Shown: piece by piece, positions 3,745-61,694 of the stretch | How the letters are laid out: each line of letters opens with the position of its first letter | Numbering within the stretch: position 1 is the first letter of the stretch | Assembly (NCBI GenBank): GCA_041690135.1 | Contig: JAWLHY010000011.1 | Location: forward strand, 192,001 to 256,000 | Origin: Armatimonadota bacterium | GTDB lineage: Bacteria; Armatimonadota; SYMT01 | DNA length: 64,000 bases | Direction of reading: 5' to 3' | Made by a program: the position numbers and the translations under genes | The notes under the pieces: generated by a model | The model's database searches: none | What the model was told of the DNA's origin: nothing | Seen by the model: only the letters and a program-made list of their open reading frames with translations

Positions 3745-4495
3745 GCCCCCGCCGGGCGCCCACGGAGGTTTACTCGCCGTGGGGGTGTGGACAGTGTGCC
3801 TTTCCAAAGCCCGACCTTTCAGGGTCGGCGCGGATCATGGGCACCCGGACCCGCCCAGGGCTGAACCCCTGGGCTCGGATACAACACGGTCCCCACCTCC
3901 GTGGGCACCTTCCCACGCTTACCGACCTCGACCAAATGCGGAAACTCACTCACGCGCACCTGTCTATCCCAGGAAACCCAACCGCCGTCCCGTGCCCCCA
4001 CCGGGCGCCTGCGTAGGTTTACGCCCGGGTACCCGCGCGCGGGTGTGGGGTGCAGGGGCCGTGCATTTGCAGAGCCTGGCCGTTCAGGGCCAGGGCGCAC
4101 CTTGCGCCACATTTCGCGCAGGGCTCAACCCCTGCGCTCCGGCACGGCGCCGTCCCCGCCTCCGCGGGCACGTCTCACGCTCTTGGGCTGCAATGCGGTC
4201 TTACTACTCACCCACGCGCACTTGCCTATCCAGGCAATTCAACCGCCGTCCTGCACCCCCACCGGGCGCCCACGAAGGTGGGCAGCGTGCCTTTCCAGAG
4301 CCCGGCCGTTCAGGGCCGGGGCGGATCACATGCACCCGGACCTGCGCAGGGTTCAACCCCTCCATACGGACGCGTGCGCTGCGCTCCGGCACGGCACGGT
4401 CCCCGCACCCCCTCGGGGCGCAAGCCTCCGCGGACACCTTCCTCCGCATCTACGCTTCGACCAAATCTGAACGGACCCCCACGCGCACCTGCCTT
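3745..4495. repeat. REP/REPIN-like array: three ~250-bp units, each an inverted pair of ~55-bp palindromic elements
   Basis: Repeated GCCCACGGAGGTGGG...AGCCCGGCCGTTCAGGGCCGGG and inverted CCCAGGGCTGAACCCCTGGGCT...CCCACCTCCGTGGGC; same family flanks the transposase at 17.3-18.6 kb. Confidence 0.85.
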
Positions 4496-17196: not shown

Positions 17197-17329
17197 GGGG
17201 TGTGGCGACTGATCCGCGAATTGAGCGAATGAGGCGAATTGGGGGCGGGAGCCGGCGGCCCGAGGCAGGGGGCCTTTCCTTGTGTCGGTTGGTCAGGAGG
17301 GAAACGGCAGGAGGCATGATCCGACACAC

Positions 17330-17545
17330 CGCCCCAGGGCTGAACCCTTGGGCTCCGGAAATGCACCATGCCCACCTCCGTGGGCACGTATCCCGCCTAT
17401 GGGCGGTGGCACGTTTCGAGTACTTGCGCACGCGCATCAGTCTGATCTTGTCTACCCGCCGCCGTAATGAGCGTCCGCCGTGCGCCCACGGAGGTGGGCA
17501 GCGTGCTTCTCCACATCCCGGCCGTTCAGGGCCGGGGCGGATCAC
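17330..17545. repeat. REP-like inverted pair downstream of the Y1 transposase
   Basis: CCCCAGGGCTGAACCCTTGGGCT...CCCACCTCCGTGGGC (17333-17385) and GCCCACGGAGGTGGG...CCCGGCCGTTCAGGGCCGGG (17484-17537). Confidence 0.85.
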
Positions 17546-17598
17546 GGGACGGGACGGATCACGGGCCAGCGCGGAGACAGGGGTCAGGCAACCGCATC

Positions 17599-18018
17599 CT
17601 AATCGACCTCGATCCGTTCCGCGGCCTCCCAGAGCGTGACCGCCCGGTGGTGTTCTTCCTGGTTCTCGATGTAGCGGATCACCCGACGGAGGTGACTGGG
17701 GCTCACCGTCAGGCTGCCATACCCGCCCTGCCACTTGAACCCTTCACCCACCTCCACGCGAGCCTTATTCAAAGCGCGGGACGAGGCGCCTTTGACGCCC
17801 TCCGCAAAATCGGCCACGCAGAGTGTCCGCGGAAGAGAGACCAACAGATGGACGTGATCGGCGATCCCACCCAGCGCATGAACCTCGCAGCGCAATTCCC
17901 GGCACTTACTCCGGATCAAGGCATAAGCGTGTCGCTGGATGGGGCCGGTCAACAACGGCTCCCGGTTCCAGGTCGCCCAAACGAAGTGGTAAAACAGCCT
18001 CCCGTAGCTCTGCGCCAT
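17599..18018 (-). mobile_element. tnpA: IS200/IS605-like HUH Y1 transposase, probably REP-associated (RAYT-like)
   Basis: YHFVWATWNR, HUH motif DHVHLL, KWQGGYG, catalytic YIENQEEHH; flanked by REP arrays on both sides; no tnpB. Confidence 0.9.
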
Positions 18019-18129
18019 AGCCTCTCCTTGCATCCGGCAAGTCTACAATGGTTGCCTCCTTCCCGTTCGGACAGGAGACGGGCTCCTCCTGCTACTGGAT
18101 ACCTGACATAGGGCGGGGCAATGGTCCGG

Positions 18130-18625
18130 CACACCGCCCCAGGGCTGAACCCCTGGGCTTTGGGACCGCACCGTCCCCGCACCCCCTCGGGGCGTAAACC
18201 TCCGCGGGCACGTTTTCCGCACACGCCTTGCTCAAAATCCACACGCTCGCTCACGCGCACCTGCCTATCCCAGGAATCCCATCCGCCGCCTTGAGCCTCC
18301 ACCGCGCGCCCACGGAGGCTTGCGCCCCGCGGGGGTGTGGGCAGCGTGCATTACCGGAGCCCGGCCGTTCAGGGCCGGGGCGGATCACGGGTACCCAACC
18401 CGCCCAGGGCTGAACCCCTGGGCTCCGGTACGGCACGGTCCCCGCCTCCGCGGGCACCTTCCCTCGCATCTGGGCCTCGACCACATCCGGAGGGTCTTCC
18501 ACGCGTGCCTGCGTATCCCGTGAATCCCAGCCGCTATAACGGGTACCGCCGGGCGCCTGCGCAGGCAGGGGCCGTGCTTCACCACAGCCCGGCCGTTCAG
18601 GGCCGGGGCGGATCACGGGCACCCG
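18130..18625. repeat. REP/REPIN-like array (four elements) upstream of the Y1 transposase
   Basis: Same element family as 3745-4495, in alternating orientation. Confidence 0.85.
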
Positions 18626-19435: not shown

Positions 19436-20155
19436 ATGTTCAAGCGCTCGTCTCGAGGGTTCACCCTCATCGAACTTCTCGTAGTGATAGCGATCATCGC
19501 CATCCTCGCCGCTATCCTCTTCCCGGTTTTCGCCCGCGCCCGCGAGGCCGCCCGCGCCTCTTCTTGCGTGAACAACCTCAAGCAGATCAACCTCGCGGTG
19601 ATGCAGTACACCCAGGACTACGATGAGGTCCTGCCGATCATGAACGCCATCGCCAGCGCCCCTCCGGTGGCGGGTGAGAGCGGCTGGGTCAACGCGGTGG
19701 CCCCGTATATCAAGAACACCCAGGTCTTCAAGTGCCCCAGCGCCTCCGGGGCCCAGGCGACGGCAACCTGCACCTCTTTCCAGATGGGTGGCGTTTCCTA
19801 CACCGGCGTGGGGTGGGCGGTGCCGATTCTGGATTATGCCATCAACCAGAACCTGGCTGCCGGAGGGTCCCAGGCCACCGCGCTGGGGCTGGCGAGCATG
19901 GAGTATCCAGCAAATATCGTGATGAACCTGGAGACCAACCGGCTGCGCGGCTGTGCGGGCGGCGAGAACTGGAACGGCGACTTCATCGGGCTGCGGGGCG
20001 CCACGCCCGCCGCGCGGAACACCTGCCTCACCCGCCACAACGACGGCAGCAACTACGGCTTCGCCGACGGGCACGTGAAGTGGGCCAAGGCGGAAAGCAT
20101 CAAGCAGTCCTACGCCACACCCGGCACCGAGCCGTTCTGGTTCATCGCCCCGTAG
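19436..20155 (+). CDS. Prepilin-type N-methylation / DUF1559 protein with H-X9-DG motif
   Basis: [30 protein letters not shown]; [17 protein letters not shown]. Confidence 0.92.
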
Positions 20156-22768: not shown

Positions 22769-23134
22769 TCATTTAGAGGCGCCAGACTCCTGCCAGAGTG
22801 TCTTGACCCGCTCCACCGCGGAGCGGAACTCCTGGTAGGCCTCCGGGCTGGCGCCGATGAACTCCACGCCGCTCACTACCCAGGAAGCCAGCTCCGGCTG
22901 CCGCAGGTGGTAGTAGACGTGGCGACCCTCGCGACGTTCCTCCACAATCCGGTGTGCCCGCAGGACGGCAAGGTGCTGCGATACGCCGGACTGGGCGATC
23001 CCCAGGATCCCCTGCAGGGTCTGTACGTCCCGCTCTTCGCTCCCCAGCTCCTCGATGATCCGGATGCGGTGCGGGTGGGAGAGCACGCTGAAGAGACTCG
23101 CGAGCTCCTTGCTGACCAGTGCGCGTTCAGGCAT
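22769..23134 (-). CDS. ArsR/SmtB family transcriptional regulator (no Cys)
   Basis: [33 protein letters not shown]. Confidence 0.92.
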   Translation of the reverse strand: MPERALVSKELASLFSVLSHPHRIRIIEELGSEERDVQTLQGILGIAQSGVSQHLAVLRAHRIVEERREGRHVYYHLRQPELASWVVSGVEFIGASPEAYQEFRSAVERVKTLWQESGASK

Positions 23135-23161
23135 GAGATGAATGGGTATCGAATGGATTCA

Positions 23162-23183
23162 TATGCATATATCGGTATGCATA
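23162..23183. promoter_or_regulatory. Putative ArsR operator TATGCATA-N6-TATGCATA
   Basis: Two palindromic 8-mers 28 bp upstream of the ArsR start, AT-rich in a GC-rich background; related TGCATA-N5-TATGAG at 23441-23457 before tolC. Confidence 0.5.
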
Positions 23184-23459
23184 CTATACCACCGCTCTCC
23201 ACGGGCAGCAACTCGGGGTCCCACCCCGCACGGCGGGACCCCGAGTTGAAGAAAAAACCGTGCCGGCCGGCGTGCGCACGGACCAGGACGGCACGGAGGT
23301 GCCTCCAGGGCAACCGGGCCGGGATCTCCATCAGGTAACAGCCGCAACCCTGGCGCTTGCTTTCCCCACATAAACGCAACAAAACCATGTGGATTTCCGG
23401 ATCCGTTCCGCATATCTTAATAGCGTTACCTTCGAACATTTGCATATGTGGTATGAGAG

Positions 23460-25502
23460 ATGCGTATTCGTCCACTCCTGACCCTGATCTCGACCTTGCC
23501 GGTGGCGACCCTCCTGGCGGCCCCTCCGTTGTACGCGGATTCTCCCTTGCCGGTACGCCTGCAGATCGCCGGTATGGAGCTTCGGGGTGCCGCCCCCGCC
23601 CTTTTCGACGGCAAAGAGACGTATGCCCCGCTGGAGGTGCTGTCGGCGGTCGGCCTGGAAGTGGAGAAAACCCCGCGCAAGCAGGGCGCGGTCGTTGTGA
23701 CGGACCCGGACAGCGGTAAGCGCAGTGAGCTCCGCCTCACGAAACGGGCCGGAAAGTCGCTGCTGCCGCTCTCGGAAGTGGCCCGGTTGGTGGAAGGCGA
23801 CGTGGAGCGGCCGGCCCGGTTGGATAAGGACGGCACCCCGGTGCCGGCCAAGCCGGGCGACTGGGTCTACCTTCTGGCGCGGGTCCGGTCCGTGCAGGTG
23901 ACGGAAGGCACGGTACGGATCGACACCACCTTTCCGGTCCCGGTGCGGAACGCCCCCTTGGAGGATGAGACGGCGCTGCAGGTCACGGTGGAGTGCGTCG
24001 GCGCCGCGGTGCCGGAGAGCTTCTCTCCCGCCCCCCTTCCCCCGGACGAGCGGCGGGTGCGGGCGGTGGCCGTTTCCCAGGCCCGGGTGGACGTGGTGCG
24101 GGTCACCCTGGACCTGGCCGCTCCCCCCGCCGGAGCCTGCGCCGAGCCCGGGGAACCGGCCGGGGCGCAGGCCGAGCCGCTGCTGCTGGATGACGTCCTC
24201 CGGCAGGTGCAGGGGAACTACCCCAAGTTGAGCGCCGCCGATGCCGAGCGCCGTACGGCCGCGGCAAAGCTGCGCGAAAAGCAGGGGTTCTTCGACCCGG
24301 TCCTTACCGGCGGCAGCGAGTTCACCCGCTTTCCGGATAGCGACAAGCTGGGAGCGCTGAAGTCGTTTTCGGCTACCTTCGCGGGCGTCGAGTTCCTCAC
24401 CCCGTACGGGATCAAGGTGATTACGGGCGGACGCCGCCACGACGGCTCGGTGAAGTCGCCCCTCTCCCCCACGGGAAGCACCGGCGAGTACTTCGTGGGC
24501 GTGAAGCTCCCGCTGCTGGCCGGGGCGGGGATCAACGAGAAGTCCGCGGCGCTCCGGCAGAGCCGGCTGGGCGTGCCGCTGGCCGATAGTGAGTTCGACC
24601 TGACCCGGATCGAGGTACTGCTGAAGGCGGCGAACGTCTACTGGGACTGGGTGGCCGCCGGCCGCCGGGTGGACGTGGCCCGGAACCTGCTCGGGCTTGC
24701 CCGGGTCCGGGCGCAGGCGGTGCGGGAGCGTGCCGAGTTGGGCGACCTCCCCCTGATCGACGTGACCGAGGCCAACCAGGAGGTCCAGCGCCGCATCGAG
24801 GGCCTCCAGAAGTCGGAGCGGGAGTGGCAGAAGGAGACCTTCAAGCTCTCCGTGTTCCTCTGGAATGCCGACGGAACGCCGATGCCGCTGCCTACCCTGG
24901 CAAACCTGCCCCCCGCGACGCCGCCCGCCGGCGCGCTGGAGGATGAGCGGGTGGAAGACGGCCGCAGCCTGGCGCTCGAGCGGCGCCCGGAGCTGCAGGC
25001 CCTCACCCTGGCCCAGCGGTTCACCCGGGTGAGCCTCGACCTGGCCCGCAACCAGCGGCTGCCCGCGATCGACCTGTCCCTGGCGCCCGGCGTGGATACC
25101 GGGTTCGGCGGGGCGGGCGGGACGCTCAAAGCCGGCGTATCGGTGGGGCTGCCGCTGCGACAGCGGACCGCCGAGGGCCGCATCCAGGAGGCGCGGCTGA
25201 AGCTGGAAAAGCTGGAGTTGGACCAGCAGTTGGAACGCCAGCGGATCGTTACGGAGGTGGCGGATGCCGCCTCGGCCGTCCGGCAGGCCTATCAGCGTTA
25301 CGTGGCCGCCGCGGAAGAGCTGTCCCTGGCCCGCAGGCTGGAACAGGGCGAGCGCGACCGGTTCGACCTGGGCGACAGCACCCTGTTCCTCGTGAACCAG
25401 CGCGAGCGGGCGACCGCCGAGGCGGCCGTCAAAGTGATTACCATCCAGGCGGAGTACGAGCAGGCCCTGGCCCTGTTCCGGGCCGTTACCGCGCAGATCT
25501 AG
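23460..25502 (+). CDS. TolC-family outer membrane factor with ~240-aa N-terminal extension (AMIN-like)
   Basis: Signal peptide; OEP repeats ([30 protein letters not shown]); N-terminal [21 protein letters not shown] is AMIN-like. Confidence 0.85.
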
Positions 25503-25509
25503 GCTCTCC

Positions 25510-27396
25510 ATGCACACCCACCACGCTTCTCATTCTTCCGCTCATCCCTCCCCGCACGCTTCACACGGCGGGGACCATGCCCACCCCACGCCCCAGCAAC
25601 GCCTGCGCCGGATGCTGTGGGAAGACCGCAGCGATCTCGCGGTGCTCTTCGCCTACATCATGGTGACGGGGATCTTCGTGCTCGCCGTGCCGCTCGCGGC
25701 GCAGGCGCTGGTGAACACCATCGCGGCCGGGTTCTCGCTCCAGCCGTTGATCGTGCTGACCCTGCTCGTGCTGGGAGGCCTGCTCTTCGCGGGGGTGCTC
25801 CGCCTGCTACAGCTTTCCATCGTGGAAACGCTCCAGCAGAGGGTGTTCGCTCGCGTGGCGCTCCAGTTGGCGAACCGCCTGCCGCGGGTCCGACAGCAGG
25901 CCCTTTCGGAAGGCTACGCTCCGGAGCTGGTCAACCGCTTCTTCGACGTGCTGACTATCCAGAAGACCTTCTCCAAGCTGCTGCTCGACGGCGTGGCGGC
26001 CGCCCTGCAGGCTACGGTCGGGTTGATCCTGGTGGCGTTCTACAACCCGCTGCTCCTGGGGTTCGCCCTCTTCATCCTCGCCTCGTTCTTCTTCATCAGC
26101 GTGGGTCTCGGGTTCGGCGGTCTCCGCACAAGCATCCACGAGTCGATCCAGAAGTACCGCGTCGCGGACTGGCTGGAAGAGCTGGCGCGGTGCCATGCCA
26201 GCTTCAAGATGCACGCCGGGGGCAGCTTCCTCACCGACCGCGCGGATGCCCTGGTGATGGACTATATCGCCGCCCGCCGCTCCCACTTCGTGGTCGTGTT
26301 CCGGCAGGCGGTCGGCAACTACTTCTTCCAGGCGGTCGCCAGCGCCGGCACGCTGGGGATCGGCGGCTGGCTGGTGATCAACCGCCAGCTCACCCTGGGG
26401 CAACTCGTCGCGGCGGAGCTGGTGGTGGTGTCGGTTCTCTCCGCCATGGACAAGCTGATCAAGCAGGCCGAGCAGGTCTACGACCTCCTGACCGCCCTGG
26501 ACAAAGTGGGGCACGTGACCGACCTTCCCCTGGAGCGCGAAGACGGAGCTCCGCTTCCGGCCGGCACCGCGGGGGCCCGCGTGCTCTGTCGGGGCGTCCG
26601 GTTCTCCTACCGCCCGGGCGCGGAGGTGCTCGCCGGCCTGGACCTGCAGCTTCAGCCCGGGGAACGGGTGAGCCTGGTGGGGATCAGCGGCGCCGGGAAG
26701 AGCACCCTGGCCGCGCTGCTCTGCGGGCTGGAAGAGCCCAGCCACGGCGCCGTGGAGATCAACGGGATGGAGGTCCGCTCCGCGACCCTCCCCTCCCTGC
26801 GCCGCGTGGTGAGCCTGGTGAGCGACGACCAGGAGATCTTCTCCGGCACCCTGGAAGAGAACGTGCGCGTCGGTCGGGCCCACGTGTCCCACGAAGACAT
26901 GCGCTGGGCCCTGGAAATCGCGCAGCTGACGGACGAGCTGTCGCTGCTCCCCTACGGCACGAAAACCCGGCTGGTGAGCGGCGGCAACAATCTCTCCCAC
27001 GGCCAGGCCCAGCGGCTGCTGATCGCCCGCGCCATCGTCGACCGTCCCCAATTGCTGATCCTCGACGAAGCGTTCACCGGCATCGACGAGCGGACCAAGC
27101 TGGAGATCCTGGATGCGCTGTACGCGCCGGAGCACCAGTGGACCCTGATCGACATCTCCCACGATGCGGAGGTGGTGATGCGCTCCAGCACGGTTCACGT
27201 CCTGAGCCAGGGCCGCATCGTGGAGTCCGGCCCTCCCGAGGCGCTGGTGACCCGCGCCGGGTCCGCGTTCGCCTCCCTCTTCCCGGACCTCGCGGCGCAG
27301 ATCCAACGCGGCCGCGCCCCGGGCTCACCGGAACCGGCTGCCTCCCGATCTAACACCTTGCCGGAGGGGGCGGGCGTCGTGGTGGAAATGGCATGA
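25510..27396 (+). CDS. Type I secretion-type ABC transporter (TMD+NBD) with His-rich N-terminus
   Basis: [29 protein letters not shown]; [15 protein letters not shown]; [12 protein letters not shown]. Confidence 0.9.
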
Positions 27397-27700
27397 GGAC
27401 CGATCGTGCATCGCTGTTGGAGCGGGGGCCGCATGATGGGTACTCACTCATAAACGTCCCCGTGGAGAGCCAGGACGTGCCTAAGGGGATAAGGGAAGTA
27501 TCGGAACAATTCTTGACCGCTCGGCGCGAACCTGCTTCTCCACCCAGCTCAATGAGGCTTGCCGGAGTGACGGCGCTTGCGCGGCCGTGTACTGGGAAAC
27601 CGTACCTGCTCAGTTACTTGCACACACCCTTAGCCTTCCTCGGCATGAACGTGGTCGCGTCGATACCGAACAGGACTCGCCACCAAGTCTTGGGCGTGGG

Positions 27701-27952
27701 CTCCCCCCTCTCTGTGTCGGAGAGGGGGCCGGGGGGTGAGGTTACCATGCTCACCGTACTTGCCAGCGAAGATGCACTCCCGAAATGCGCTCCCCCTGGT
27801 TATCCACCCCGTCCTACACACGGGCTCCCCCTCTCCCGCAGCGTGGGAGAGGGGCTAGGGGTGAGGGCTCTCTGGTCACCCCTCTCTACGTCGGAGCCGG
27901 GTCCCGAAGGCTTTCGAGAGGGGGTACCCCGTACGGGGTGGCGGGGGATGAG
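27701..27952 (+). repeat. Three CCCCTCTC..GAGAGGGG..GGG(T/A)GAGG REP-like elements
   Basis: Copies at ~27701, 27825 and 27879; same family at ~30762, 35339 and 37952. Confidence 0.75.
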
Positions 27953-28128
27953 GTTACCGAGGGTACCGGATCCGGCAATGGTGACGCTCATAAGGCCCGC
28001 GCAGGTCTACGCCCGGGCCGGACACACTTCGGGTGGCGCGCGCGGATGTGGGGTGCGGGGACGGTGCTGTTGCAGAGCCCCAAGGTTTAGCTCGGGGATC
28101 CTTTGCGGGTTGGATAGGGGACCGATGA

Positions 28129-30219
28129 ATGACAGTTGCTGAAAGATCGCTGGGTGATCAGACGCTTCCCTCGGGCGGGAGCTCGAAGCTGCCGGTTTCG
28201 CTGCAATCGGTCGCGCCTCGGGCGTGGGCGGGGCGGGTGGTGGTGATGTTGCTGGTCCTGGTGGTGCTGGTGGCGTCGTGCCTCATTTTCGTCCCCTGGC
28301 AGCAGTCCGTCACGGGGAACGGGCGGATCATCGTCTACTCCGCGATGGAGCGCCCGCAGAACGTGGACGCGCCTATCCCCGGACGATTGGTCCGCTGGCA
28401 CATCCAGGAAGGACAGGTCGTCCGGGCCGGGGAGACGCTCGCCGAGATCTCCGACCTGGACTCCAAGTTCCTGGACCCGGAACAGGCGCGGCGGCTCCAG
28501 GATCAGCGGGCGGCGCTGGTGATCCGCCGGGAGGCGGCCCAGGCCCGCGCGGCGGCGCTGGAGAGCCAGCTTCAGTTCCTGGATCGCTCCCGGAACGTGG
28601 CCATCCCCACCGCGGGAGAGCGGGCCATGCAGGCCCAGGAGCGCCTGGGGGCCGCCCGCGAAGCGCTGACGGCGTCCAAACAGAGCTATACGGCCTCGCG
28701 AGAGGTCTCCCTGCCCTCGGCCCGGGAGAAGGCTCTGCAGGCCGAAGAGCGAGAACGGGCCGCGCAAGAGACTTTGACGGCAGCTATCCAGAGCCTGAAG
28801 GCCGCCGAGGAAGTCGGGCTGCCCACCTCGCGCGAGAAAGCCTCCCAGGCAAAGGAACGGGAACGCGCCGCGGAGGAAGCCCTGATCGCGGCCCAGCAGA
28901 ACCTCAGGGCCGCGCAGGAGGTCGCCATCCCCTCCGCCCGGGAGAAGCTGCAACAGGCAGTGGAGAAGAAGCGGGCGGCGGAGCAGGCGGTTCAGGCCGC
29001 CCGGCAGGTCCTGGTGGCATCGGGGCTGAACCGCGAGCGGATCCGCGAGCTGTTCAAGAAGACGCTGCGCTCCCGCCGCGACGATGAGCTGGCGGAAGTG
29101 GACCTGGTACGCGCCCGGACCGACGTGGAGCGGGCCCAGGCCGCGCTGTCCGTCGCGGAGCGCGACGTGCGGGTCGCCGAGCTAGACCAGGAGAAGGCGC
29201 AGGTGGATGCCCAGCGCGCCCGGACCGAGGTCGAGCGCGCGAAGGCGGCGGTGGATATCGCCCGGCGCGACACCACCGTGGGCGGCTTCGACCTGACCAA
29301 GGCGCAGGTGGACATCGAGCGGGCGCGGACCGAAGTCGAGCGCGCCCGGGCCGCCCTGGATATCGCCCGGCGGGACGTGAAGGTGGCCCGGCTGGAAGCC
29401 AACCGCGCCGAGCTGGACGTGGTCCGCGCCCGCACCGAGGTCGAGCGTTCCCGGGCCGGCGTGGACATCGCGCGGCGGGACACCTCCGTCGGCGACCTGG
29501 ACCGGACGAAGGTGGAGGCCGACACCGCGGCGACCCTCAGCAGCGTGCAGGCCTCCCTCGCCTCGGCCCGGGAGACGATCGCCTCCATCACCAGCGACAT
29601 CCTCAAGGTGGAAGTCGAGCTGCAGAACGTGCGACAGCGCATGGACCAGCGGTACATCCGCGCTCCCCGCGACGGTCGCGTCGTCCGCCTGATGCGGGTC
29701 GGGGCCGGCGAGGCCGTGAAGTCCGGCGACACCCTCGCGGTGCTGGCGCCGGAGACCGCCGACCAGGCGGTGGAGCTGTACCTCTCCGACAACGATGCTC
29801 CCCTGGTGGACGTCGGGCGCCCCGTCCGGCTGCAGTTCGCCGGCTGGCCCGCGCTGCAGTTCTCCGGCTGGCCTTCCGTGGCGGTGGGGACGTTCGCGGG
29901 ACGGGTCACGGTGATCGACGCCATCGACGACGGCACCAGCCGGTACCGGGTGATCGTGAAGCCGGACGAGGAGCTCATCCGGCAGGGCAAGGAAGAGCCG
30001 TGGCCGAACCCGCGGCAGTTGCGCCCCGGCGCCGAAGTGACCGGGTGGGTGATGCTGGAAACGGTCTCCCTTGGCTTCGAGCTGTGGCGCCAGTTCAACG
30101 CCTTCCCGCCGACCATCGAGCGCGATCCGTCCGACAAACCGGACGCTTACGGCAAGAGCACCTCGGAGGGCAAGGGGGACGGCAAGGGCGGCGAGATCAA
30201 GCGGAAGGCGGGCAAATGA
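28129..30219 (+). CDS. HlyD-family periplasmic adaptor with a greatly extended, repeat-built alpha-hairpin
   Basis: TM anchor + [10 protein letters not shown], lipoyl halves APIPGRL..EGQVV and [38 protein letters not shown]. Confidence 0.9.
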
Positions 30220-30617
30220 GGCCAGAGCATTCTCCTGAAGCCCCGGCCCTGCCGGAAGACGCGCTGGTCGCGCGGGAGTTGGGCCACCTGCTGGGCATCC
30301 TCTCCCACCCCGGCCGCATCCGCATCATCGAGGAGCTGCGGGCCGAGGAGCGAGATGTGAATCACCTGCAGGAAGTGCTCCACGTGAGCCACTCCCGCGT
30401 CTCGCAGCACCTGAGCGCGCTCCGGGCGCACCGCCTGGTGATTGAGCGGCGCGAGGGGCGCCACGTGTACTACCGGCTCCGGCAGCCGGAGATTGCGGCC
30501 TGGCTGTTGGGCGGCCTGCACTTCATCGAGGGAGAGCGGGAAGCGCTGGAAGAGTTCCACGCGGCGGCGGAACGGGTGCGGGCCATCTGGCCCGAGTCCG
30601 CGTCGTCGCGCGGGTGA
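30216..30617 (+). CDS. ArsR/SmtB family regulator, paralog of 22769-23134
   Basis: ATGA overlap with the adaptor stop; [30 protein letters not shown]. Confidence 0.9.
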
Positions 30618-30949: not shown

Positions 30950-31558
30950 ATGAAAGAGGCTTCGACCCATTCAGGTGCTCCCGGTGTGGAGAACCAGCAA
31001 CTGGCCGGCATCGACACGGCGCCGCAGCACGCGGCATCCCAGGCCGGGCCCGCCGGGCCACCGCGCGTGGGGGTGATCATGGGCTCCCGTTCGGACTGGG
31101 AGACCATGCGGCACGCCGCGGACACCCTGCGGGAACTCGGCGTGCCGTTCGAGGCGCGGGTCGTCTCCGCCCACCGCACGCCGGACCTGCTTTTCGAGTA
31201 CGCCGCCTCCGCGGAGGCGCGCGGCCTGGAGGTGCTCATCGCCGGGGCCGGCGGAGCGGCGCACCTCCCCGGCATGGCGGCGGCCAAAACGCTGCTGCCG
31301 GTGCTGGGCGTGCCGGTGGAGTCCCACGCGCTGAAGGGAATGGACTCGCTCCTCTCCATCGCGCAGATGCCGGCGGGCATCCCCGTGGGCACCCTCGCCA
31401 TCGGCAGAGCGGGCGCGGTGAACGCCGCCCTCCTGGCGGCGGCGATGCTCGCAAACAAGTACCCCGAGGTGCGTGCCGCCCTCGCCGGGTTCCGGGAACG
31501 ACAGACGCAGGCCGTGCTGGCGACCGCGCAATTGCCGGTTGAAGAGGGGGTTCAGTGA
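30950..31558 (+). CDS. purE: N5-carboxyaminoimidazole ribonucleotide mutase
   Basis: [38 protein letters not shown]; start approximate. Confidence 0.96.
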
Positions 31559-32658
31559 TGAGTGGTTTGCGGGTTGGGATCATCGGCGGAGGGCAGTTGG
31601 GCCGGATGCTCGCGCTGGCCGGCTATCCCCTGGGCATGCAGTTCCGGTTCCTCTCCTCCAGCCCCGACGCCCCCGCGGGACAGGTGGGGGAGCTCGTGGT
31701 CGGCGGTTTCGGGGACCGGAAGGCGGTGGACCGTTTTGTCGCAGGACTGGACCTGGTCACCTATGAAACGGAAAACACCCCCGTGGAGTTCGTGCGCGAA
31801 CTGGCCACCCGGGTGCCGGTCTACCCCGGGCTGCGCGCCCTCACCATCGCGCAGGACCGCCTCCCGGAAAAGCAATTCTTCGCGCGGCTGGGAGTGCCGA
31901 CGCCGCTCTTCGCCCCGGTTTCCAACCGCGCCACCCTGGAAACGGCCTTGAGCCACGTGGGGCTTCCCGCCCTGCTGAAGACCCGGCGCATGGGCTACGA
32001 CGGCCGGGGCCAGTTCCGGATCCGGACGCGAGAGGAGGCCGAAGCCGCCCTCGAACAGCTCCAGGGCGAGCCCGGTCTGCTCGAGCAGCACGTCCCGTTC
32101 GAACGAGAGCTCTCGCTGCTGGCGGTGCGGGGCCGCACCGGGGAGACGGCCTTCTATCCGCTGGTGGAGAACCACCACGAACAGGGAATCCTGCGGACCT
32201 CCCTCGCCCCCGCCCCCGGTGTCACGCGCGACCTCCGGCTCCAGGCGGAGGGGCACGTCCGCCGGATGCTCCACGACCTCGACTACGTGGGCGTCCTGGC
32301 GGTGGAGTTCTTCCTGGTGAACGGCACCCTCGTCGCCAACGAGATGGCGCCGCGCGTCCACAACTCCGGCCACTGGACGGAGGAAGGCGCCGAAACGAGC
32401 CAGTTCGAGAACCACCTGCGCGCCATCGCCGGTCTCCCGCTCGGCTCCACGCGCCCGGTGGGGCACTCCGCCATGCTCAACCTGATCGGCACGGTCCCCG
32501 AGCCGGACCGCATCCTGGCGGAACCGGGCGCGCACCTCCACCTCTACGGCAAACAGGGCCGCCCGGCGCGCAAGCTGGGGCACATCACCCTGCGGGCCTC
32601 CCGCCGCGAGATCCTGGAGCAGCGCGTGTCCCGCGTCCGCGCCGCCCTGGGCGGGTGA
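31555..32658 (+). CDS. purK: N5-CAIR synthase
   Basis: [35 protein letters not shown]. Confidence 0.96.
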
Positions 32659-33314: not shown

Positions 33315-33387
33315 CGCCCCCGGCGTGAATCGAACACGCGACCAATTGCTTAGAAGGCAACTGCTCTATCCGCTGAGCTACGGGGGC
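33315..33387 (-). tRNA. tRNA-Arg(UCU), CCA not encoded
   Basis: GCCCCCGTAGCTCAGCGGATAGAGCAGTTGCCTTCTAAGCAATTGGTCGCGTGTTCGATTCACGCCGGGGGCG forms a cloverleaf; anticodon loop CT-TCT-AA. Confidence 0.95.
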
Positions 33388-33629: not shown

Positions 33630-34154
33630 TTAGCGTTTGCGGCGGTTGTTGGGCTTATCGTCCCGCTTGTTGCGAGCCCCGTCTCCGTCCCGGTCGCGGT
33701 CCCGGCTGTTGCGGATACCGTCTCGATCCAGGTCCCGGCTGCCCTTGGATGGAATGTTGGGGCGCTTGTCCTTCTGATTTCGCCGTCCGTCGCCATCGCG
33801 GTCCCGGTCGAGGCTGTTGCGGATGCCGTCTCGATCCAGGTCCCGGCTTCCCCGCGACGGAATGCTGGGATACTTGTCCTTCTGGTTACGCAGACCATCG
33901 CCGTCCCGGTCTCGATCCCGGCGATTGGGAATCCCGTCCCGATCCAGGTCCCAGCGCCGCTGTCCCCGGGTGTTGTACCAGAAGCCGTTGCGGAACTTCA
34001 GGCGTTGACCCCGGATGGTATACCACTGCCCGTTGCGGTACTGCACTCGACGGGACGGCGCCGCCTCCGCCGAAGAGGGAGCGACCATCACCGCACCGGC
34101 AATGAGGGCCGCGAGACCGAATATCTTAAAACTGCGCGTGAAACGCTGTGTCAT
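33630..34154 (-). CDS. Secreted basic protein with three thrombospondin type-3-like DxDxDG repeats
   Basis: Signal peptide ending AEA; 36-aa repeats DLDRDGIxNxxDRDRDGDG..NQKDK.P. Confidence 0.8.
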   Translation of the reverse strand: MTQRFTRSFKIFGLAALIAGAVMVAPSSAEAAPSRRVQYRNGQWYTIRGQRLKFRNGFWYNTRGQRRWDLDRDGIPNRRDRDRDGDGLRNQKDKYPSIPSRGSRDLDRDGIRNSLDRDRDGDGRRNQKDKRPNIPSKGSRDLDRDGIRNSRDRDRDGDGARNKRDDKPNNRRKR

Positions 34155-45275: not shown

Positions 45276-46235
45276 ATGGGCAAAGGCATTCCGGTCATCG
45301 ATAAGCTGCTCCGCCGCACTCGCGGCGACTCGCGGGTCGAGCAGGGCCTGAACGGCGCCCTCTCGGGAAGCGAGGATGAGTTCGCCGGTACGAGCAGCGA
45401 AGCGGATGGATGTTACACGCGCGACAACTATTCGGTAGGCCTGGCATACCCCACGCATCGGCGGCTGCTCACCGCCCGGGAAGAGGTGATCCTGGCCGTG
45501 CGAGCCAAGTCCGGGGATACTGCCGCCCGGCAAGCGATGATGGAGGCGAACATTCGCCTGGTCATGAGCATCGCCCGCCGCTACACCTGCAAGAGCCTGA
45601 CGTTCGAAGACCTGGTGCAGGAGGGGATCCTCGGTCTGCTGGAGGCGATCAACAAGTTCGACACCACCCGGGGGCTCCGCTTCAGCACCTACGCCACCTA
45701 CTGGATCCGCCAGGCCATCGTGCGGGCGATCGAGAAGCAGGACCGGTTGATCCGCCTGCCGGTCTACGGGTGCGACGCCGTACGCAAAGTGGAGCGAGCG
45801 GAACGGGCGCTCTCCGAGACGCTCGGTAGACCGCCCACACCGGAGGAAGTTGCCCGCGAGACCGGTTTGCCGGTGCGCCTGGTCAAAAACATCGCCCAGT
45901 ATGGGCAGGACCCGCTTTCCCTGGATGCCATGGTGGGCGACAGCGACGACACGCTGTTTGCCGACCTGGTGGTCGATGCCGACGCCGCGGACCCGGCCGA
46001 TACCGCCCTGGGCGCCATGGACCGCGAGGCGCTGATGGAGCAGGTCCGTTACCTGGAGCCGCGCGAGCAAATGGTGATCGAGCGCCGCTTCGGCCTCTCC
46101 GACGGCAAAGTGCACACGCTTAAGGAGATCGCCGACCAGCTCAAGATGTCGCGCGAGGGCGTCCGCCACGTCCAGCTTCGCGCCCTCCGCAAGCTCAAAG
46201 ATGGCCTGGGCCGCGCCGGCGTGATGCCGGCGTAG
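45276..46235 (+). CDS. Sigma-70 family alternative sigma factor (RpoD/RpoS-like, group 2)
   Basis: NIRLVMSIARRY, DLVQEG, RFSTYATYWIRQAI, RLIRLPV, SREGVRHVQ. Confidence 0.92.
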   Translation: MGKGIPVIDKLLRRTRGDSRVEQGLNGALSGSEDEFAGTSSEADGCYTRDNYSVGLAYPTHRRLLTAREEVILAVRAKSGDTAARQAMMEANIRLVMSIARRYTCKSLTFEDLVQEGILGLLEAINKFDTTRGLRFSTYATYWIRQAIVRAIEKQDRLIRLPVYGCDAVRKVERAERALSETLGRPPTPEEVARETGLPVRLVKNIAQYGQDPLSLDAMVGDSDDTLFADLVVDADAADPADTALGAMDREALMEQVRYLEPREQMVIERRFGLSDGKVHTLKEIADQLKMSREGVRHVQLRALRKLKDGLGRAGVMPA

Positions 46236-48552: not shown

Positions 48553-48836
48553 GGTCGGCTCCATTCGTTGTGGGTCTAACGGCAGACACGCTGTCCACTC
48601 CATTATGGTGACCCTTGCGAGGGTTCTTGCGCGTGTCACTCGAGGCCCGGGTGTGAAGTTTTTCACTTCACACTTCCCAACCCCGGATGGAACGATCCCT
48701 TCAGAAGATGGAGAGGGGAGCGCTACTCCGCCGCCCCCCAGATAACCCGGCGCTGTGGACTCCGTCCGGCGGCGCGCGACGCACAGGGCTTACGGCCAGG
48801 AACGGAACCGCTTTCTACGCACGGAGGAGAAGAACC

Positions 48837-49187
48837 ATGTCCCGATCCCACACCCGCCGCGGCTTCACGCTCGTCGAGATCATGATCGTGGTGCTGATCA
48901 TCGGCATCCTGCTCGCCATTGCCGTCCCGAACTTCATCAAAGCCCGCGAGAGCAGCCGCGCCAAGAGCTGCATCTCCAATCTGAAGTCGATCCAGGGCGC
49001 TAAGGAGCAGTGGGCGATGGACCACAAGAAAGTCGCGGGTGACACCGCCGGCTTCTCCGACCTGGTCGGTACGGACAAGTACATCAAGAGCACCCCCGAG
49101 TGCCCCAGCAGCGGCACCTACACCATCAACGGGTTGGGTACCGCCCCGGAGTGCTCGCGGTTCGACGACGGTCACAGCATTCCGTAA
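48837..49187 (+). CDS. Type IV pilin / T2SS pseudopilin-like protein
   Basis: RBS GGAGGA; RRGFTLVEIMIVV class III signal; C-terminal Cys pair. Confidence 0.9.
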   Translation: MSRSHTRRGFTLVEIMIVVLIIGILLAIAVPNFIKARESSRAKSCISNLKSIQGAKEQWAMDHKKVAGDTAGFSDLVGTDKYIKSTPECPSSGTYTINGLGTAPECSRFDDGHSIP

Positions 49188-49355
49188 TCCTTTGCGGAGT
49201 GATTTCCCTCACGTCCGCCGCTGGGGAACCCCGGTGATCCCGCCAATAGAGAGGCGTGGACACCGGGGTTGACCGCGCTGGAGACGCGCCACGACGGGCA
49301 CGGCGAGCCGGCCTTCTCCGGGTATCCTGATAACGAGACAGGAAATGAGGAGAAG

Positions 49356-49715
49356 ATGAACGAAGCCTGGAAGCAAAGCGGCCGCCGGGGGTTTACCCTC
49401 GTGGAGATCATGATCGTGGTGCTGATCATCGGCATCCTGCTCTCGATCGCCGTCCCCAACTACATCAAAGCGCGTGAGAGCTCCCGGGCCAAAAGTTGCA
49501 TCGCCAACCTGAAGACCATCGACGCCGCCAAGGAGCAGTGGTCGATGGAGAACAAGAAGGTCGCGGGCGACACCGCCGGCTTCTCCGACCTGGTGGGCAC
49601 GGACAAGTACATCAAGAGCACTCCGGAGTGTCCCAGTGGCGGCACCTACACTATTGCCGGCCTCGGCACGGACCCCTCCTGCTCCCGCAGCACCGACGGC
49701 CACACCATGCCGTAG
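49356..49715 (+). CDS. Type IV pilin-like protein, tandem paralog
   Basis: RBS GAGGAG; RRGFTLVEIMIVV; near-identical to the upstream pilin. Confidence 0.9.
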   Translation: MNEAWKQSGRRGFTLVEIMIVVLIIGILLSIAVPNYIKARESSRAKSCIANLKTIDAAKEQWSMENKKVAGDTAGFSDLVGTDKYIKSTPECPSGGTYTIAGLGTDPSCSRSTDGHTMP

Positions 49716-50026: not shown

Positions 50027-50893
50027 ATGTACACCAGGCGCTGGGTCCGGTTGCGGGGGTTCACCCTGATCGAGCTGCTCGTAGTGATTGCCATTATCGC
50101 TATTCTTGCAGCGATACTCTTCCCGGTCTTTGCACAGGCCCGAGATGCGGCCCGGAAGGCGACGTGCGTCAGTAATCTCAAGCAGATCGGGCTGGCCCTG
50201 AACATGTATGTCCAGGACTACGATGAGACCATCGGGGCCACTACCTACGGCGACTCCTGCCGCGCGAGCGGTGCTCCGGGGGCGGCGCGCTCCGATGCCA
50301 ACTACGTGGGGATGCCCGGCTGGCCGGTCGCGTTGCAACCCTACGCGAAGAACCTCGGGTTCCTCTCCTGCCCGTCGGACCCGCATAAGGGCGGCTTCGC
50401 AAAGACCGGCTCCTACTGCTACGAGGCGCAGATGGTGCAGGGGAACCTGCCGGGGGCCTATACCGGGATCAGCGCCAACAACGCGGACATGCGGAAGGTG
50501 CTGCCGCTCTCCTACAGCGCCAACTACTTCCTGAGCAACACTCAGGCCACCCCATACCGGCCGGCGGCGCCGGACATCCCCGGCGGCGTGGCACTGGCCG
50601 CCATTGCCCGGCCGGCGGAGGTGTTCTTCGTCACCGAGAACGGCACGGACCCGGCCGCCGGGTACGCCGCCTACTACATCACCCCCGGCTACGGCAATTC
50701 CGCCAGCCCCACCAACCGTTGGGCGATGGGAATGCGCCACCAGGAAGGTCGCGTGTGGGTGTTCGTGGACGGCCATGCCAAGTGGTCGAAGGACATCCCC
50801 TACCTCAAGTCCCCCGGCGTGGCGAAGACGCAGGCGGAGTTGATCGCGGAATACGCCGCGCGGGGTATCCTCACTGACCCCTTCACCCCGTAG
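50027..50893 (+). CDS. Prepilin-type DUF1559 / H-X9-DG protein
   Basis: [30 protein letters not shown]; [17 protein letters not shown]. Confidence 0.92.
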
Positions 50894-59311: not shown

Positions 59312-59359
59312 GGCCGGGTTCCGCCGGATCGTCCGTTCGCAACAAGAAGGGTGTCCTTT

Positions 59360-60010
59360 ATGATGCTACATCACACCAACCGGCCCCGGACACGGCGGGG
59401 CTTCACGCTGATTGAACTGCTCGTCGTCATAGCCATCATCGCCATCCTGGCCGCCATCCTCTTCCCGGTCTTCGCCCGCGCCCGCGAGGCCGCCCGCGCC
59501 ACCAGTTGCAAGTCGAACCTGAAACAAATCGGGATTGCGACCCAGCTCTACGCCCAGGACTACGACGAGCGGGTCGTCTCCGCCTTCATCTACTACTCCC
59601 CCTCCGACAACCTGGTCTGGTGGCCGGATCTCATCCGCCCTTACGCCAAGAACGAGCAACTCACGCTCTGCCCCAGCGCGCCCAATCCGCAGAATTACTG
59701 CACGAACTGGCGCCGGCCCGCTGGGATGGTCCCGCCTTCGGTTTGCTTCAATTACACCTTCCCCGACTGGTTCAACGGACGTGCGATGGCCGAGCTTCCG
59801 GTCCCGGCCGACACCATCCAGGGGGTTGACTCCAACAGCCACGAGTACTGGAGCTACGAGCAGACGGATGCCCCGATGAACCGCAGCACCTACACCCCGC
59901 GGACAGCCAAGCGCCACAGCGAGATGATGAACGTGCTCTACCATGATGGCCACGTGAAGGCGGTGAAACAGACCCGCCTCGGGGAGTGGACCATCGCCGA
60001 AGGCGACTAA
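59360..60010 (+). CDS. Prepilin-type DUF1559 / H-X9-DG protein
   Basis: [31 protein letters not shown]; [16 protein letters not shown]. Confidence 0.92.
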
Positions 60011-60090: not shown

Positions 60091-60406
60091 TCCTATTGTC
60101 CGTCCGGAAGACCTGGAAGTTTCTCCCCTGGCACGTGAGTAATCAAGAACTTTTCCGATAGAAGAGTTCTTGATATTAGATGATAAATGCTCAAATCAAG
60201 TCCATAAGGAGCTGGAAAGGGGACGAATCTCCCCCCGTTCTGCATTTTTGCGGATGAAAGTCCCTCCACATCTGTTTCCGGGCGGGTATCTTGTTTTAGA
60301 TCACATCGTGTGGCAATCCGAGCCACGGATCCCCCCGCCTTGGCTGACCAGACATGCCGTCACCAGAGAGGGTACGCCTTTACCGGAAGATGCAGATGGA
60401 GGTCAG

Positions 60407-61186
60407 ATGGCGGAAGGACGAGAGGCAGTTTCGACTTCTCAAGAGCAGCTATGGCTGGAGTTCGTGCGTACCCGCGACTCCTCTCTGCGCGAAGTCCTCA
60501 TCAACCATCACCGGCGACTGGCGTATGCGCTGGCCCATCGTTTCCGGGGTCGTGGAGTGCCTCTCGAAGACCTGGTTCAGGTCGCCCTCCTTGGCCTGGT
60601 GCGCGCAGTGGATCGTTTCGACCCACACCTTTCTCCCCACTTTAGCAGTTTCGCGGTTCCGACGATCGTCGGGGAGCTCCGGCGCCATTTCCGGGACTGT
60701 TCCGGTAGCGTCCGCGTCCCCTGGCATGTGCAAGCGCAGGTTCGGTCTCTACACCGGGTAACCGAAGAGTTACTTTCGGTTATGGGGCGCCACCCTACGA
60801 CCTCGGAGATTGCCGTGGCACTCTCCATCTCGGATGATCAGGTTCTGGACCTCATCGCCCTGCGAGAACTGGCCCATCCGCTCCCGGAACACGACCCTCA
60901 TTTCGAGCAGCACCCGTCCCCCAGCTTGGAGGAGCTGGCGGGCCAGGTGGACCTTCGGCTGGCCGGGGTGGAGACGCGGGTCGCGGTGGCGCAGGCCCTT
61001 ACCGGCCTTCCCGTGCAACTCCGTCGCATTATCCGCCTGCGGTATCTGGAAGCGAGGAGTCAGCGTGAAGTCGCCGCGTTGCTGGGCATCTCGCAGATGC
61101 ACGTTTCCCGGCTGGAGAAAGAGGCCCTTACCTGCCTGAGGAATGAACTGGAGGTCCATTCTCCCCGCTCTCCTCCGCGGCCCTGA
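60407..61186 (+). CDS. SigB/SigF/SigG-family sigma factor
   Basis: RBS GGAGG; EDLVQVALLGLVRAVDRFDP, FAVPTIVGELRRHFRD, GISQMHVSRL. Confidence 0.9.
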   Translation: MAEGREAVSTSQEQLWLEFVRTRDSSLREVLINHHRRLAYALAHRFRGRGVPLEDLVQVALLGLVRAVDRFDPHLSPHFSSFAVPTIVGELRRHFRDCSGSVRVPWHVQAQVRSLHRVTEELLSVMGRHPTTSEIAVALSISDDQVLDLIALRELAHPLPEHDPHFEQHPSPSLEELAGQVDLRLAGVETRVAVAQALTGLPVQLRRIIRLRYLEARSQREVAALLGISQMHVSRLEKEALTCLRNELEVHSPRSPPRP

Positions 61187-61291: not shown

Positions 61292-61338
61292 CCTGCTCAG
61301 GAGGGGGCCTGCTCAGGAGGGGACCTGCTCAGGAGTGG
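61292..61338 (+). repeat. Three 16-bp tandem repeats CCTGCTCAGGAGGGG(G/A)
   Basis: Seen directly; overlaps the STAS gene stop. Confidence 0.75.
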
Positions 61339-61694
61339 GAAGGTGCGGAGAGTGCCAGGAGCGCGTGGATGGCGGCATCTCGGCTGGCGTGGAGCGGCAG
61401 AAGGTCCTTCCAGCGGAGAATCTCCAGGGGCCGTTCCACCCGCCAATTGCCGTGGGTGACGATGGCCAGGGGTCGGTGGACGGCGGCCATGCTGCGGCCG
61501 CACCGGAGGAGGAAGCGAGCGCCCCGCCCGTCCATGAACGTGACTTCCTGGAGATTGAGCAAGACCGCGGGAGGCTCGGATGCGAGTGTAGCGGACCAGC
61601 GGGCCTGTGCATCGGCCTCGGTGCAGGCGTCAAGGTCTCCGCTGATGATGAACTCGATGCACTCCTGGGTGGTGTAGGTCTCCACTAGCAGCAT
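61329..61694 (-). CDS. STAS-domain anti-sigma-factor antagonist
   Basis: ISGDLDA, LLNLQEVTFMDGRG. Confidence 0.8.
   Translation of the reverse strand: MLLVETYTTQECIEFIISGDLDACTEADAQARWSATLASEPPAVLLNLQEVTFMDGRGARFLLRCGRSMAAVHRPLAIVTHGNWRVERPLEILRWKDLLPLHASRDAAIHALLALSAPSHS

What the first reader, a model, noticed from the sequence alone, without database searches (positions are those of the whole stretch)
22769..30617. Candidate long-reach type I secretion/efflux system bracketed by twin ArsR regulators
Seen: arsR(-) | AMIN-like-TolC, His-rich ABC, giant HlyD, arsR(+). All three transport parts carry unusual extensions, and no RTX or bacteriocin cargo gene is in the locus. Known: ABC-HlyD-TolC tripartite exporters exist in many diderms. 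Inference: a variant adapted to a wide periplasm or thick wall (peptidoglycan-binding TolC plus telescoped adaptor) with an unknown substrate and dedicated dual repression. This is the best candidate here for an undescribed system.
Basis: partly seen in the sequence, partly recalled or inferred. Interest (0 to 1): 0.75.

Follow-up and report, generated by a model that had tools for sequence, protein, structure and literature searches.

The report
Telescoping exporter tied to CO2-uptake regulon
A three-part bacterial export pump whose connecting tube grows in fixed steps of about 5 nm, probably to cross an unusually wide cell envelope, and whose repressor in related bacteria also marks the genes for CO2/bicarbonate uptake.

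Summary
The genes are as described: arsR(-), tolC, ABC, hlyD, arsR(+). They belong to a widespread, uncharacterised ABC-HlyD-TolC family with no linked cargo gene; the host is probably Armatimonadota.

1. The adaptor hairpin is quantised. Of 120 homologues, 95 have 179, 250, 321 or 392 residues. Both arms lengthen in lockstep (+36/+35) around an invariant TolC-binding RLS tip. This copy would be about 28 nm long. Sphingomonads have 78; Bacteroidota, Acidobacteriota and Melainabacteria 179; Armatimonadota 250 and probably 392. One Armatimonadota isolate has a 55 nm periplasm.
2. The TolC extension is an amidase-derived module with an AMIN fold, found in 14 other TolCs. A long adaptor does not always come with it.
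3. A 20-bp palindrome learned from other genomes gives its two best hits in 64 kb just before tolC and arsR1. In Obscuribacterales it also precedes dabBA and carbonic anhydrase genes, and a Sphingobium plasmid carries dabBA-ABC-hlyD-tolC in one row.

The His-rich ABC tail is a normal trait of the clade. The substrate is not shown. Best guess: small-molecule efflux switched on by bicarbonate shortage. Verdict: new variant of a known kind.

The parts
22769..23134 (-). arsR1: Cys-free ArsR/SmtB repressor with the family's Met-Pro N-terminus
   Evidence: NF033788 85.3 bits, cut-off 55; family conservation
23161..23180 (.). Predicted operator before arsR1 (10.3 bits, second-best hit in the window)
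   Evidence: reached in 0.54% of 5000 spacer resamplings
23428..23447 (.). Predicted operator just before the tolC start (16.8 bits, best hit in 64 kb; third-best is 3.7)
   Evidence: 0 of 5000 spacer resamplings reach it
23460..23534 (+). TolC signal peptide (approximate), placing the N-module in the periplasm
   Evidence: hydrophobic stretch at residues 6-24; cleavage site judged by eye
23535..24116 (+). Amidase-derived N-module of TolC: copper-amine-oxidase-N-like part (about 23535-23858) plus AMIN domain (about 23862-24116)
   Evidence: boundaries set by eye from the model
24189..25502 (+). TolC-family outer-membrane channel core, of normal length for the family
   Evidence: PF02321 E 1e-40; core length does not change with adaptor class
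25510..27396 (+). HlyB/PCAT-like ABC exporter without C39 domain; His-rich tail 25510-25599; intact Walker A, LSHGQ signature, DE Walker B and H-loop
27397..28128 (.). Lineage-specific insertion of REP-like repeats; not a gene
28129..30219 (+). HlyD-type adaptor, 696 aa, N-terminal membrane helix (residues 37-55), 392-residue hairpin
28597..29028 (+). Four 36-aa repeats on the outgoing arm (44-67% aa identity), each with a Pro
29038..29073 (+). RLS tip motif R304-L308-S315 (TolC-binding), invariant in 46 aligned homologues
   Evidence: motif defined in PMC3391258
29119..29538 (+). Four 35-aa repeats on the returning arm (37-57% aa identity)
30216..30617 (+). arsR2: second member of the same ArsR family, overlapping the hlyD stop, lacking the Met-Pro N-terminus; not a sister duplicate of arsR1
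30950..32658 (+). purE-purK (PurK uses bicarbonate), directly downstream; possibly part of the same functional context
   Evidence: beside the pump in 6 other loci

Best explanation
An ATP-driven tripartite exporter (ABC, HlyD-type adaptor, TolC) of a widespread, uncharacterised family, rebuilt to cross a wide periplasm. Shown from sequence: the adaptor hairpin gains modules of 36 + 35 residues, one on each arm, around a fixed TolC-binding tip, while TolC itself keeps its length; this copy has three extra modules. Inferred (about 0.8): the arms pair as one straight antiparallel hairpin of about 28 nm, giving a conduit of roughly 45 nm with TolC. The AMIN module borrowed from a cell-wall amidase probably holds TolC at the peptidoglycan (about 0.6). 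ArsR1 represses its own promoter and the tolC promoter through the 20-bp palindrome (site shown computationally, binding inferred, about 0.8). Function (inferred, about 0.5): the pump belongs to a CO2/bicarbonate-shortage response, because the same repressor family and operator mark dabBA and carbonic anhydrase genes in relatives. My committed guess for the substrate (about 0.35) is a small molecule that builds up when bicarbonate-dependent carboxylations stall, sensed by ArsR1 (perhaps at its conserved N-terminal Pro) and vented by the pump, rather than a protein.
For: Length ladder 179 (53), 250 (32), 321 (1), 392 (9) among 120 homologues. Arms 79/88, 115/123, 151/158, 187/193 in 93 of those 95. 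RLS invariant. 12 of the 25 best inter-arm covariation pairs near the tip lie in the antiparallel band that holds 14% of pairs. Length follows lineage: 78 in 12 of 12 sphingomonad plasmids, 179 in 5 of 5 Bacteroidota plasmids, 250 in 6 of 6 loci titled Armatimonadota. Periplasm 55.5 nm in F. sacchari. N-module: 41 of 54 scanned relatives are Amidase_3 proteins and 5 are TolC fusions; AMIN fold. Operator: top two hits in the window; before the ABC gene in 27 of 32 ArsR loci against 2 of 45 others; at 14 bits or more before the first dab-operon gene in 14 of 16 testable loci against 6 of 297 control upstream regions. dabA/dabB within 10 kb in 17 of 38 Melainabacteria-type loci. dabB-dabA-ABC-hlyD-tolC plus CA and DUF2490 on Sphingobium pHAL16. 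purK beside the pump at three separate places on the ABC tree. No RTX repeats in 97 loci (1.69 Mb) and no conserved small ORF near the pump.
Against: No dab or carbonic anhydrase gene among the window's ORFs scanned. No dab or CA match in the 42 non-Melainabacteria genome loci, and in only 1 of 17 plasmid loci, so the carbon link rests mainly on one order plus one plasmid. The 115 flanking proteins from other lineages show no common theme. The closest curated models are protein or peptide exporters. The periplasm was measured in one distant Armatimonadota isolate, not this organism, whose phylum is inferred; the two closest genome loci are titled Actinomycetota. Covariation at the hairpin base was weak, and the whole adaptor was not folded. 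L008 has the long adaptor without the AMIN module. The REP insertion may uncouple hlyD from the tolC promoter. The operator is AT-rich in a 67% GC window, which helps it stand out; the spacer resampling controls this only in part.
Confidence: 0.5

Rival explanations
1. An orphan type I protein secretion system: the long conduit is real, but the cargo is a protein or peptide encoded elsewhere (surface protein, adhesin or extracellular enzyme), possibly still under the CO2-linked ArsR.
For: Best ABC models are NHLP, LssB and HlyB exporters at 203-222 bits. The best PDB match of the adaptor profile is a 478-aa membrane fusion protein, 8dck, with E. coli HlyD and LipC further down. Intact ATPase motifs. 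The Persicobacter ABC has an extra N-terminal region of about 150 aa.
Against: All scores are far below the curated cut-offs. No RTX protein or conserved small ORF in 97 loci, although T1SS cargo is usually linked (recalled). Invariant polar residues in the membrane domain across phyla suggest one conserved substrate.
Confidence: 0.28
2. A zinc/nickel homeostasis module: the ArsR senses metal through its N-terminal amine and His residues, the His-rich ABC tail binds metal, and DabA and beta-CA are co-regulated because they are zinc enzymes.
For: ArsR/SmtB family. His-rich ABC tails in most of the clade. DabA binds zinc (10.1101/476713 abstract). Pro2 is conserved in 95%; N-terminal amine metal binding occurs in NmtR and RcnR (recalled).
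Against: No Cys in 133 of 166 and no DxH alpha-5 site visible in the alignment. Metal-specific ArsR models score far below cut-off. Metal transporters lie near only a few loci. His tails are mostly absent in sphingomonad and Bacteroidota members.
Confidence: 0.12
3. A generic housekeeping exporter (lipid, glycolipid or envelope component). The link to dab genes is a local arrangement in Obscuribacterales and does not apply here; the repeat expansion is tolerated drift.
For: No common neighbour in Blastocatellia, Bacteroidota or most sphingomonad loci. Only 2 of 42 non-Melainabacteria genome loci have the ArsR. Length class changes several times on the tree (12 changes, minimum 9).
Against: Drift would not keep two separate gene segments growing in exact lockstep in 93 proteins. 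The operator learned elsewhere lands on this locus's two promoters. dabBA is in line with the pump in an unrelated phylum.
Confidence: 0.1

Closest known systems
Type I secretion systems HlyBD-TolC, PrtDEF, LssBDE
   Same: ABC exporter with membrane and ATPase domains, membrane-anchored adaptor with lipoyl halves and RLS tip, TolC channel.
   Different: Scores far below the TIGR01846, TIGR03375, TIGR01842, TIGR01843 and TIGR01844 cut-offs; no C39/CLD domain; no RTX cargo; hairpin built of countable modules; TolC fused to an AMIN module.
NHLP/PCAT bacteriocin exporters (TIGR03796, TIGR03797)
   Same: Best-scoring ABC models (222 and 221 bits); bacteriocin transporters are the best bacterial PDB hits listed.
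   Different: Cut-offs 853 and 709 not reached; one ABC gene only; no peptidase domain; no precursor or modifying enzymes nearby.
AmiC-type amidases and PilQ (AMIN domain proteins)
   Same: Residues 135-219 of TolC fold like the AMIN domain of AmiC (Z 8.9, rmsd 2.3 A, 82 residues) and of PilQ (Z 6.8-7.5); sequence relatives are amidases.
   Different: Fused to an outer-membrane efflux channel; the RxxxE motif (recalled) reads RxxxD here and in most fused copies; peptidoglycan binding not tested.
ArsR/SmtB repressors (BigR, SdpR, PagR, CmtR)
   Same: NF033788 passed; palindromic operator overlapping the promoters.
   Different: No named subfamily reached; Cys-free, Met-Pro start, invariant C-terminal Trp residues; predicted regulon of CO2-uptake genes.
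DAB (DabAB/MpsAB) inorganic carbon pumps
   Same: Encoded next to this exporter and behind the same operator in Obscuribacterales; in one gene row with it on Sphingobium pHAL16.
   Different: Not found in this window; no tripartite exporter or ArsR partner found in print.

Membership tests
Tripartite ABC-adaptor-OMF exporter (general) | ABC membrane + ATPase domains, adaptor with lipoyl-flanked hairpin, TolC/OEP channel in one locus | tested here: met
   trio together in 74 of 84 loci, the other 10 show two of the three
Tripartite ABC-adaptor-OMF exporter (general) | Catalytically intact NBD (Walker A, signature, Walker B Glu, H-loop) | tested here: met
Tripartite ABC-adaptor-OMF exporter (general) | RLS TolC-binding motif at the hairpin tip | tested here: met
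   R304-L308-S315 invariant, at the hairpin midpoint
RTX-type T1SS (HlyB/LssB/PrtD) | Curated family score for ABC, adaptor and OMF | tested here: not met
   202.8/725.55, 210.7/693.1, 156.9/510.15; adaptor 76.8/208.65; OMF 33/225.15
RTX-type T1SS (HlyB/LssB/PrtD) | Linked RTX cargo gene | tested here: not met
   none in the window or in 97 loci; unlinked cargo could not be tested
RTX-type T1SS (HlyB/LssB/PrtD) | One-step secretion of a protein | not testable with these tools
   needs secretome data
NHLP/PCAT bacteriocin exporter | C39 peptidase domain and linked precursor peptide | tested here: not met
   no C39 match; no conserved small ORF within 1.2 kb of the pump
AMIN domain | Pfam PF11741 match in the window protein | tested here: inconclusive
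   no match in the query; homologous region matches in relatives P0163 and P0173
AMIN domain | AMIN fold | tested here: met
   top four VIA-align rows are AmiC and PilQ domains; Foldseek gave no hit at E 0.001, AmiC at E 0.24, prob 0.99
AMIN domain | Peptidoglycan binding | not testable with these tools
   needs a binding assay
ArsR/SmtB family | NF033788 / HTH_5 above cut-off | tested here: met
Metal- or sulfide-sensing ArsR subfamilies (CmtR, BigR, SmtB-type) | Sensor Cys pair or alpha-5 site, subfamily score | tested here: not met
   no Cys in either window protein; BigR 56.6/155, CmtR 34.2/150
CO2/bicarbonate-shortage regulon | Shared operator with dab and CA genes | tested here: met
   met in Obscuribacterales; for this organism only the two sites in the window could be checked
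CO2/bicarbonate-shortage regulon | CO2-dependent expression or phenotype | not testable with these tools
   needs culture work

The most novel reading that the evidence does not exclude
This family is an unrecognised outer-membrane-spanning arm of bacterial inorganic-carbon homeostasis, controlled by a new Cys-free ArsR class that reads CO2 directly (for example as a carbamate on its conserved N-terminal Pro, with arsR2 as a signal-blind partner). Its adaptor is a genetic ruler: module number (78, then 179 + 71n residues) reads out periplasm width in about 5 nm steps and lets envelope width be predicted for uncultured phyla from sequence alone.
Probability: 0.22. Interest if true: 0.88.

Novelty: new variant of a known kind. 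Interest (0 to 1): 0.68.

Why it matters
If the adaptor is a modular ruler, it gives a sequence-readable measure of envelope width and a natural kit for testing how tripartite pumps match periplasm size: add or remove one 36 + 35 module and measure function. The AMIN-TolC fusion suggests a way to anchor efflux channels in deep-branching diderms. The operator and gene-neighbour evidence gives a testable function to an exporter family present in at least five phyla, and a candidate regulator for DAB carbon pumps in heterotrophs.

Tried and rejected
Single-sequence fold of the TolC extension: pLDDT 45.5, Foldseek uninformative; replaced by an alignment-based fold. The 249-aa gap ORF as cargo or second ABC: rejected. 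RTX or small-peptide cargo: none found. Obligate coupling of AMIN-TolC with the 392 adaptor: rejected by L008; the N-module profile hit no ORF in the 84 loci then translated. arsR1/arsR2 as a recent duplication: they fall in separate subclades (quick tree). ArsR search of plasmids: only distant ArsRs, best-ranked rows 32-42% identical. DabA search of plasmids: 126 records, none of the 60 listed was a pump-family record, so most DABs lack this pump. Sigma-70 promoter scan: 0 sites. Rfam: only a tRNA. Covariation at the hairpin base: weak, 10 of 25 top pairs near the expected band and noisy diagonals. Cluster membership and taxon labels for the nine closest adaptors could not be looked up. Metagenome and viral contig collections stayed unchecked. 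A recalled lead (an ArsR near the B. subtilis dab operon) found no support in the passages read.
Full report
OBSERVATION. tolC and the ABC gene are 7 nt apart, and arsR2 overlaps the hlyD stop codon. Pieces of this gap match repeats elsewhere in the window, the equivalent distance is 1006 nt here against at most 418 in 80 other loci, and its ORF has non-coding GC3 and no Pfam match. I read it as a REP-like insertion. None of the transport proteins reaches a curated T1SS or bacteriocin-exporter cut-off.

FAMILY AND HOST. By record title these are 38 Melainabacteria-type, 26 Acidobacteriota, 6 Armatimonadota and 10 others. Plasmid records add sphingomonads and Bacteroidota; I fetched 17 of the 21 family records. 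The host's phylum is inferred. Its ABC groups with Armatimonadota rows (SH-aLRT 96, quick tree); a fused TolC and an ArsR at 71% identity are labelled Armatimonadota. The two closest genome loci, L007 and L008, are titled Actinomycetota, which I suspect is a mislabel but could not check.

THE ADAPTOR. The stretch between the lipoyl halves is quantised among 120 homologues: 179 (53), 250 (32), 321 (1), 392 (9, query included); the other 25 measure 156-264. Around the RLS tip the arms measure 79/88, 115/123, 151/158 and 187/193 residues in 93 of those 95; two had ambiguous tip matches. Each step therefore adds 36 residues to one arm and 35 to the other, in separate parts of the gene. R304, L308 and S315 are invariant in 46 aligned sequences and match the TolC-binding motif of PMC3391258 (passages read). 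Near the tip, 12 of the 25 strongest inter-arm covariation pairs fall in the antiparallel band that holds 14% of pairs; at the base the signal was weak. At 1.5 A per residue the arms are about 12, 18, 23 and 28 nm. With TolC and the adaptor's small domains (about 16 nm, recalled) this copy would span about 45 nm. TolC cores do not lengthen with adaptor class. Length follows lineage: 78 in 12 of 12 sphingomonad and 179 in 5 of 5 Bacteroidota plasmid loci; 250 in 6 of 6 Armatimonadota-titled loci; 179-180 in every measurable Acidobacteriota and Melainabacteria locus. The class changes several times on a tree of the repeat-free parts (12 changes, minimum 9). Fervidibacter sacchari (Armatimonadota) has a 55.5 nm periplasm (PMC11535203, passages). 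That is one distant isolate, and the whole adaptor was not folded, so the ruler reading remains an inference.

THE TolC EXTENSION. Residues 26-222 have 61 relatives among 50%-identity representatives. Five are TolC fusions; of 54 scanned, 41 are Amidase_3 proteins, many with AMIN. Folded with that alignment the module reaches pLDDT 94.5, and its second half matches the AMIN domains of AmiC (Z 8.9) and PilQ (Z 6.8-7.5); Foldseek alone gave nothing at E 0.001. Fifteen of 44 TolC sequences examined carry the module, query included. Four of the eight other 392-class adaptors share their longest-contig length with a fused TolC, three of them also with a close ArsR; this co-location is inferred from those numbers, not read from DNA. 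L008 has a 392 adaptor with a plain 458-aa TolC, so the pairing is common but not required.

THE ABC. ATPase motifs are intact, and the membrane domain has invariant polar residues across phyla (N142-R143, Q151-K152, S212, K215, W221; 82 sequences). The His tail is typical of the clade (median 3 in 30 residues; 9 here) and mostly absent in sphingomonads and Bacteroidota. No ORF with two RTX repeats occurs in 97 loci, and no small ORF other than pieces of arsR recurs near the pump in more than four loci. The 115 flanking proteins from non-Obscuribacterales loci share no theme.

THE REGULATORS. This ArsR family lies beside the pump in 33 of 80 genome loci: 31 Melainabacteria-type and 2 Blastocatellia. 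In 166 sequences Pro2 is 95% conserved, follows Met directly in 142, and 133 have no Cys; arsR2 lacks the Met-Pro start and is not arsR1's sister. A palindrome ATATGCAAAT-ATTTGCATAT was learned from 46 arsR-upstream regions of other genomes. In the window its two best hits are 23428 (16.8 bits, just before tolC) and 23161 (10.3, before arsR1); the next scores 3.7. Resampled spacers reach 16.8 in 0 of 5000 trials and 10.3 in 0.54%. The site precedes the ABC gene in 27 of 32 ArsR loci and 2 of 45 others.

THE CARBON LINK. dabA or dabB lies within 10 kb in 17 of 38 Melainabacteria-type loci. The operator scores 14 bits or more before the first dab-operon gene in 14 of 16 testable loci; L028 has it before an arsR that heads the operon and L025 lacks it; controls were 6 of 297. 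Where a divergent arsR shares the spacer the training site is included; five loci without one (L043, L044, L047, L075, L078) score 22.5-23.8 fully held out. Separately placed carbonic anhydrase genes carry it in L019, L063 and L064, but not in four other Melainabacteria loci. Independently, Sphingobium plasmid pHAL16 reads dabB-dabA-ABC-hlyD-tolC-lysR, with DUF2490 and a carbonic anhydrase nearby. DUF2490 follows the 392 adaptor in L007. purE-purK follows arsR2 here and purK lies beside the pump in 6 other loci, at three places on the ABC tree; PurK uses bicarbonate (10.64898/2026.09.08.750065, passages). DABs pump inorganic carbon, bind zinc and occur in heterotrophs (10.1101/476713, abstract and passages). 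Against: no dab or CA among the window's scanned ORFs, in the 42 other genome loci, or in 16 of 17 plasmid loci, and most plasmid DABs lack the pump.

MECHANISM. Most likely an ATP-driven exporter whose adaptor has been telescoped to cross a wide periplasm, held at the wall by a borrowed AMIN module, and de-repressed by ArsR1 when bicarbonate runs short. I guess a small-molecule substrate; a protein cargo encoded elsewhere is the main rival, metal homeostasis a lesser one.

LITERATURE. Searches (listings and abstract starts only) returned nothing on this family, on stepwise adaptor lengthening, or on an ArsR for DAB pumps. Term searches within two reviews (PMC4446572; PMC8277102, of which the first 300,000 of 747,818 characters are held) found no 'hairpin length' or 'AMIN domain' passage. 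The library lacks most subscription papers and I read no supplements, so absence from print is not proven.

VERDICT. Real; a new variant of a known kind, with two testable ideas (periplasm ruler, CO2-linked regulon). Interest 0.68.

Noticed in passing
window 17599-18033(-) and flanks 17329-18616: IS200/Y1-type transposase flanked by REP-like inverted repeats; the same repeat family recurs at 3745-4494 and 28050-28100. Looks like a REP-associated transposase (label recalled).
   Followed up: partly
window 33630-34154(-): 174-aa protein with a probable signal peptide and three 36-aa repeats rich in DxDxDG (weak TSP_3 match); possible calcium-binding secreted protein.
   Followed up: no
window 33315-33387(-): tRNA-Arg(TCT).
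   Followed up: no
window 19436-20155, 50027-50893, 59351-60010, 48687-49715: Three DUF1559 prepilin-type genes and a tandem pair of N-methylation pilin-like genes.
   Followed up: no
window 45276-46235, 60170-61186, 61329-61694, 62116-62964: Three alternative sigma-70 factors and a STAS protein.
   Followed up: no
L063:13931-14902 and 9 other Obscuribacterales loci: A shortened MurF-like gene heads the dab operon behind the same operator; its role is unexplained.
   Followed up: partly
L061:1078-5336: arsR, beta-carbonic anhydrase and SulP, then genes that look like accB/accC (judged by eye), directly upstream of the pump, with the operator before arsR.
   Followed up: partly
L001:7122-8030, L090:7117-8022, L087:8161-9069: In three sphingomonad plasmids an OxyR-like LysR flanks the pump in place of ArsR (48-75% identity among them).
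   Followed up: partly
L007, L008, L075 and several loci titled Heliomicrobium or Clostridia: Record titles conflict with gene content or tree position (TolC systems in 'Actinomycetota'; 'Heliomicrobium' rows inside Blastocatellia), suggesting mislabelled assemblies.
   Followed up: no
L060:6489-7937: tolC points away from ABC-hlyD in this Chthonomonadaceae locus; in L008, L080, L082, L083 and the window it comes first, elsewhere last.
   Followed up: no
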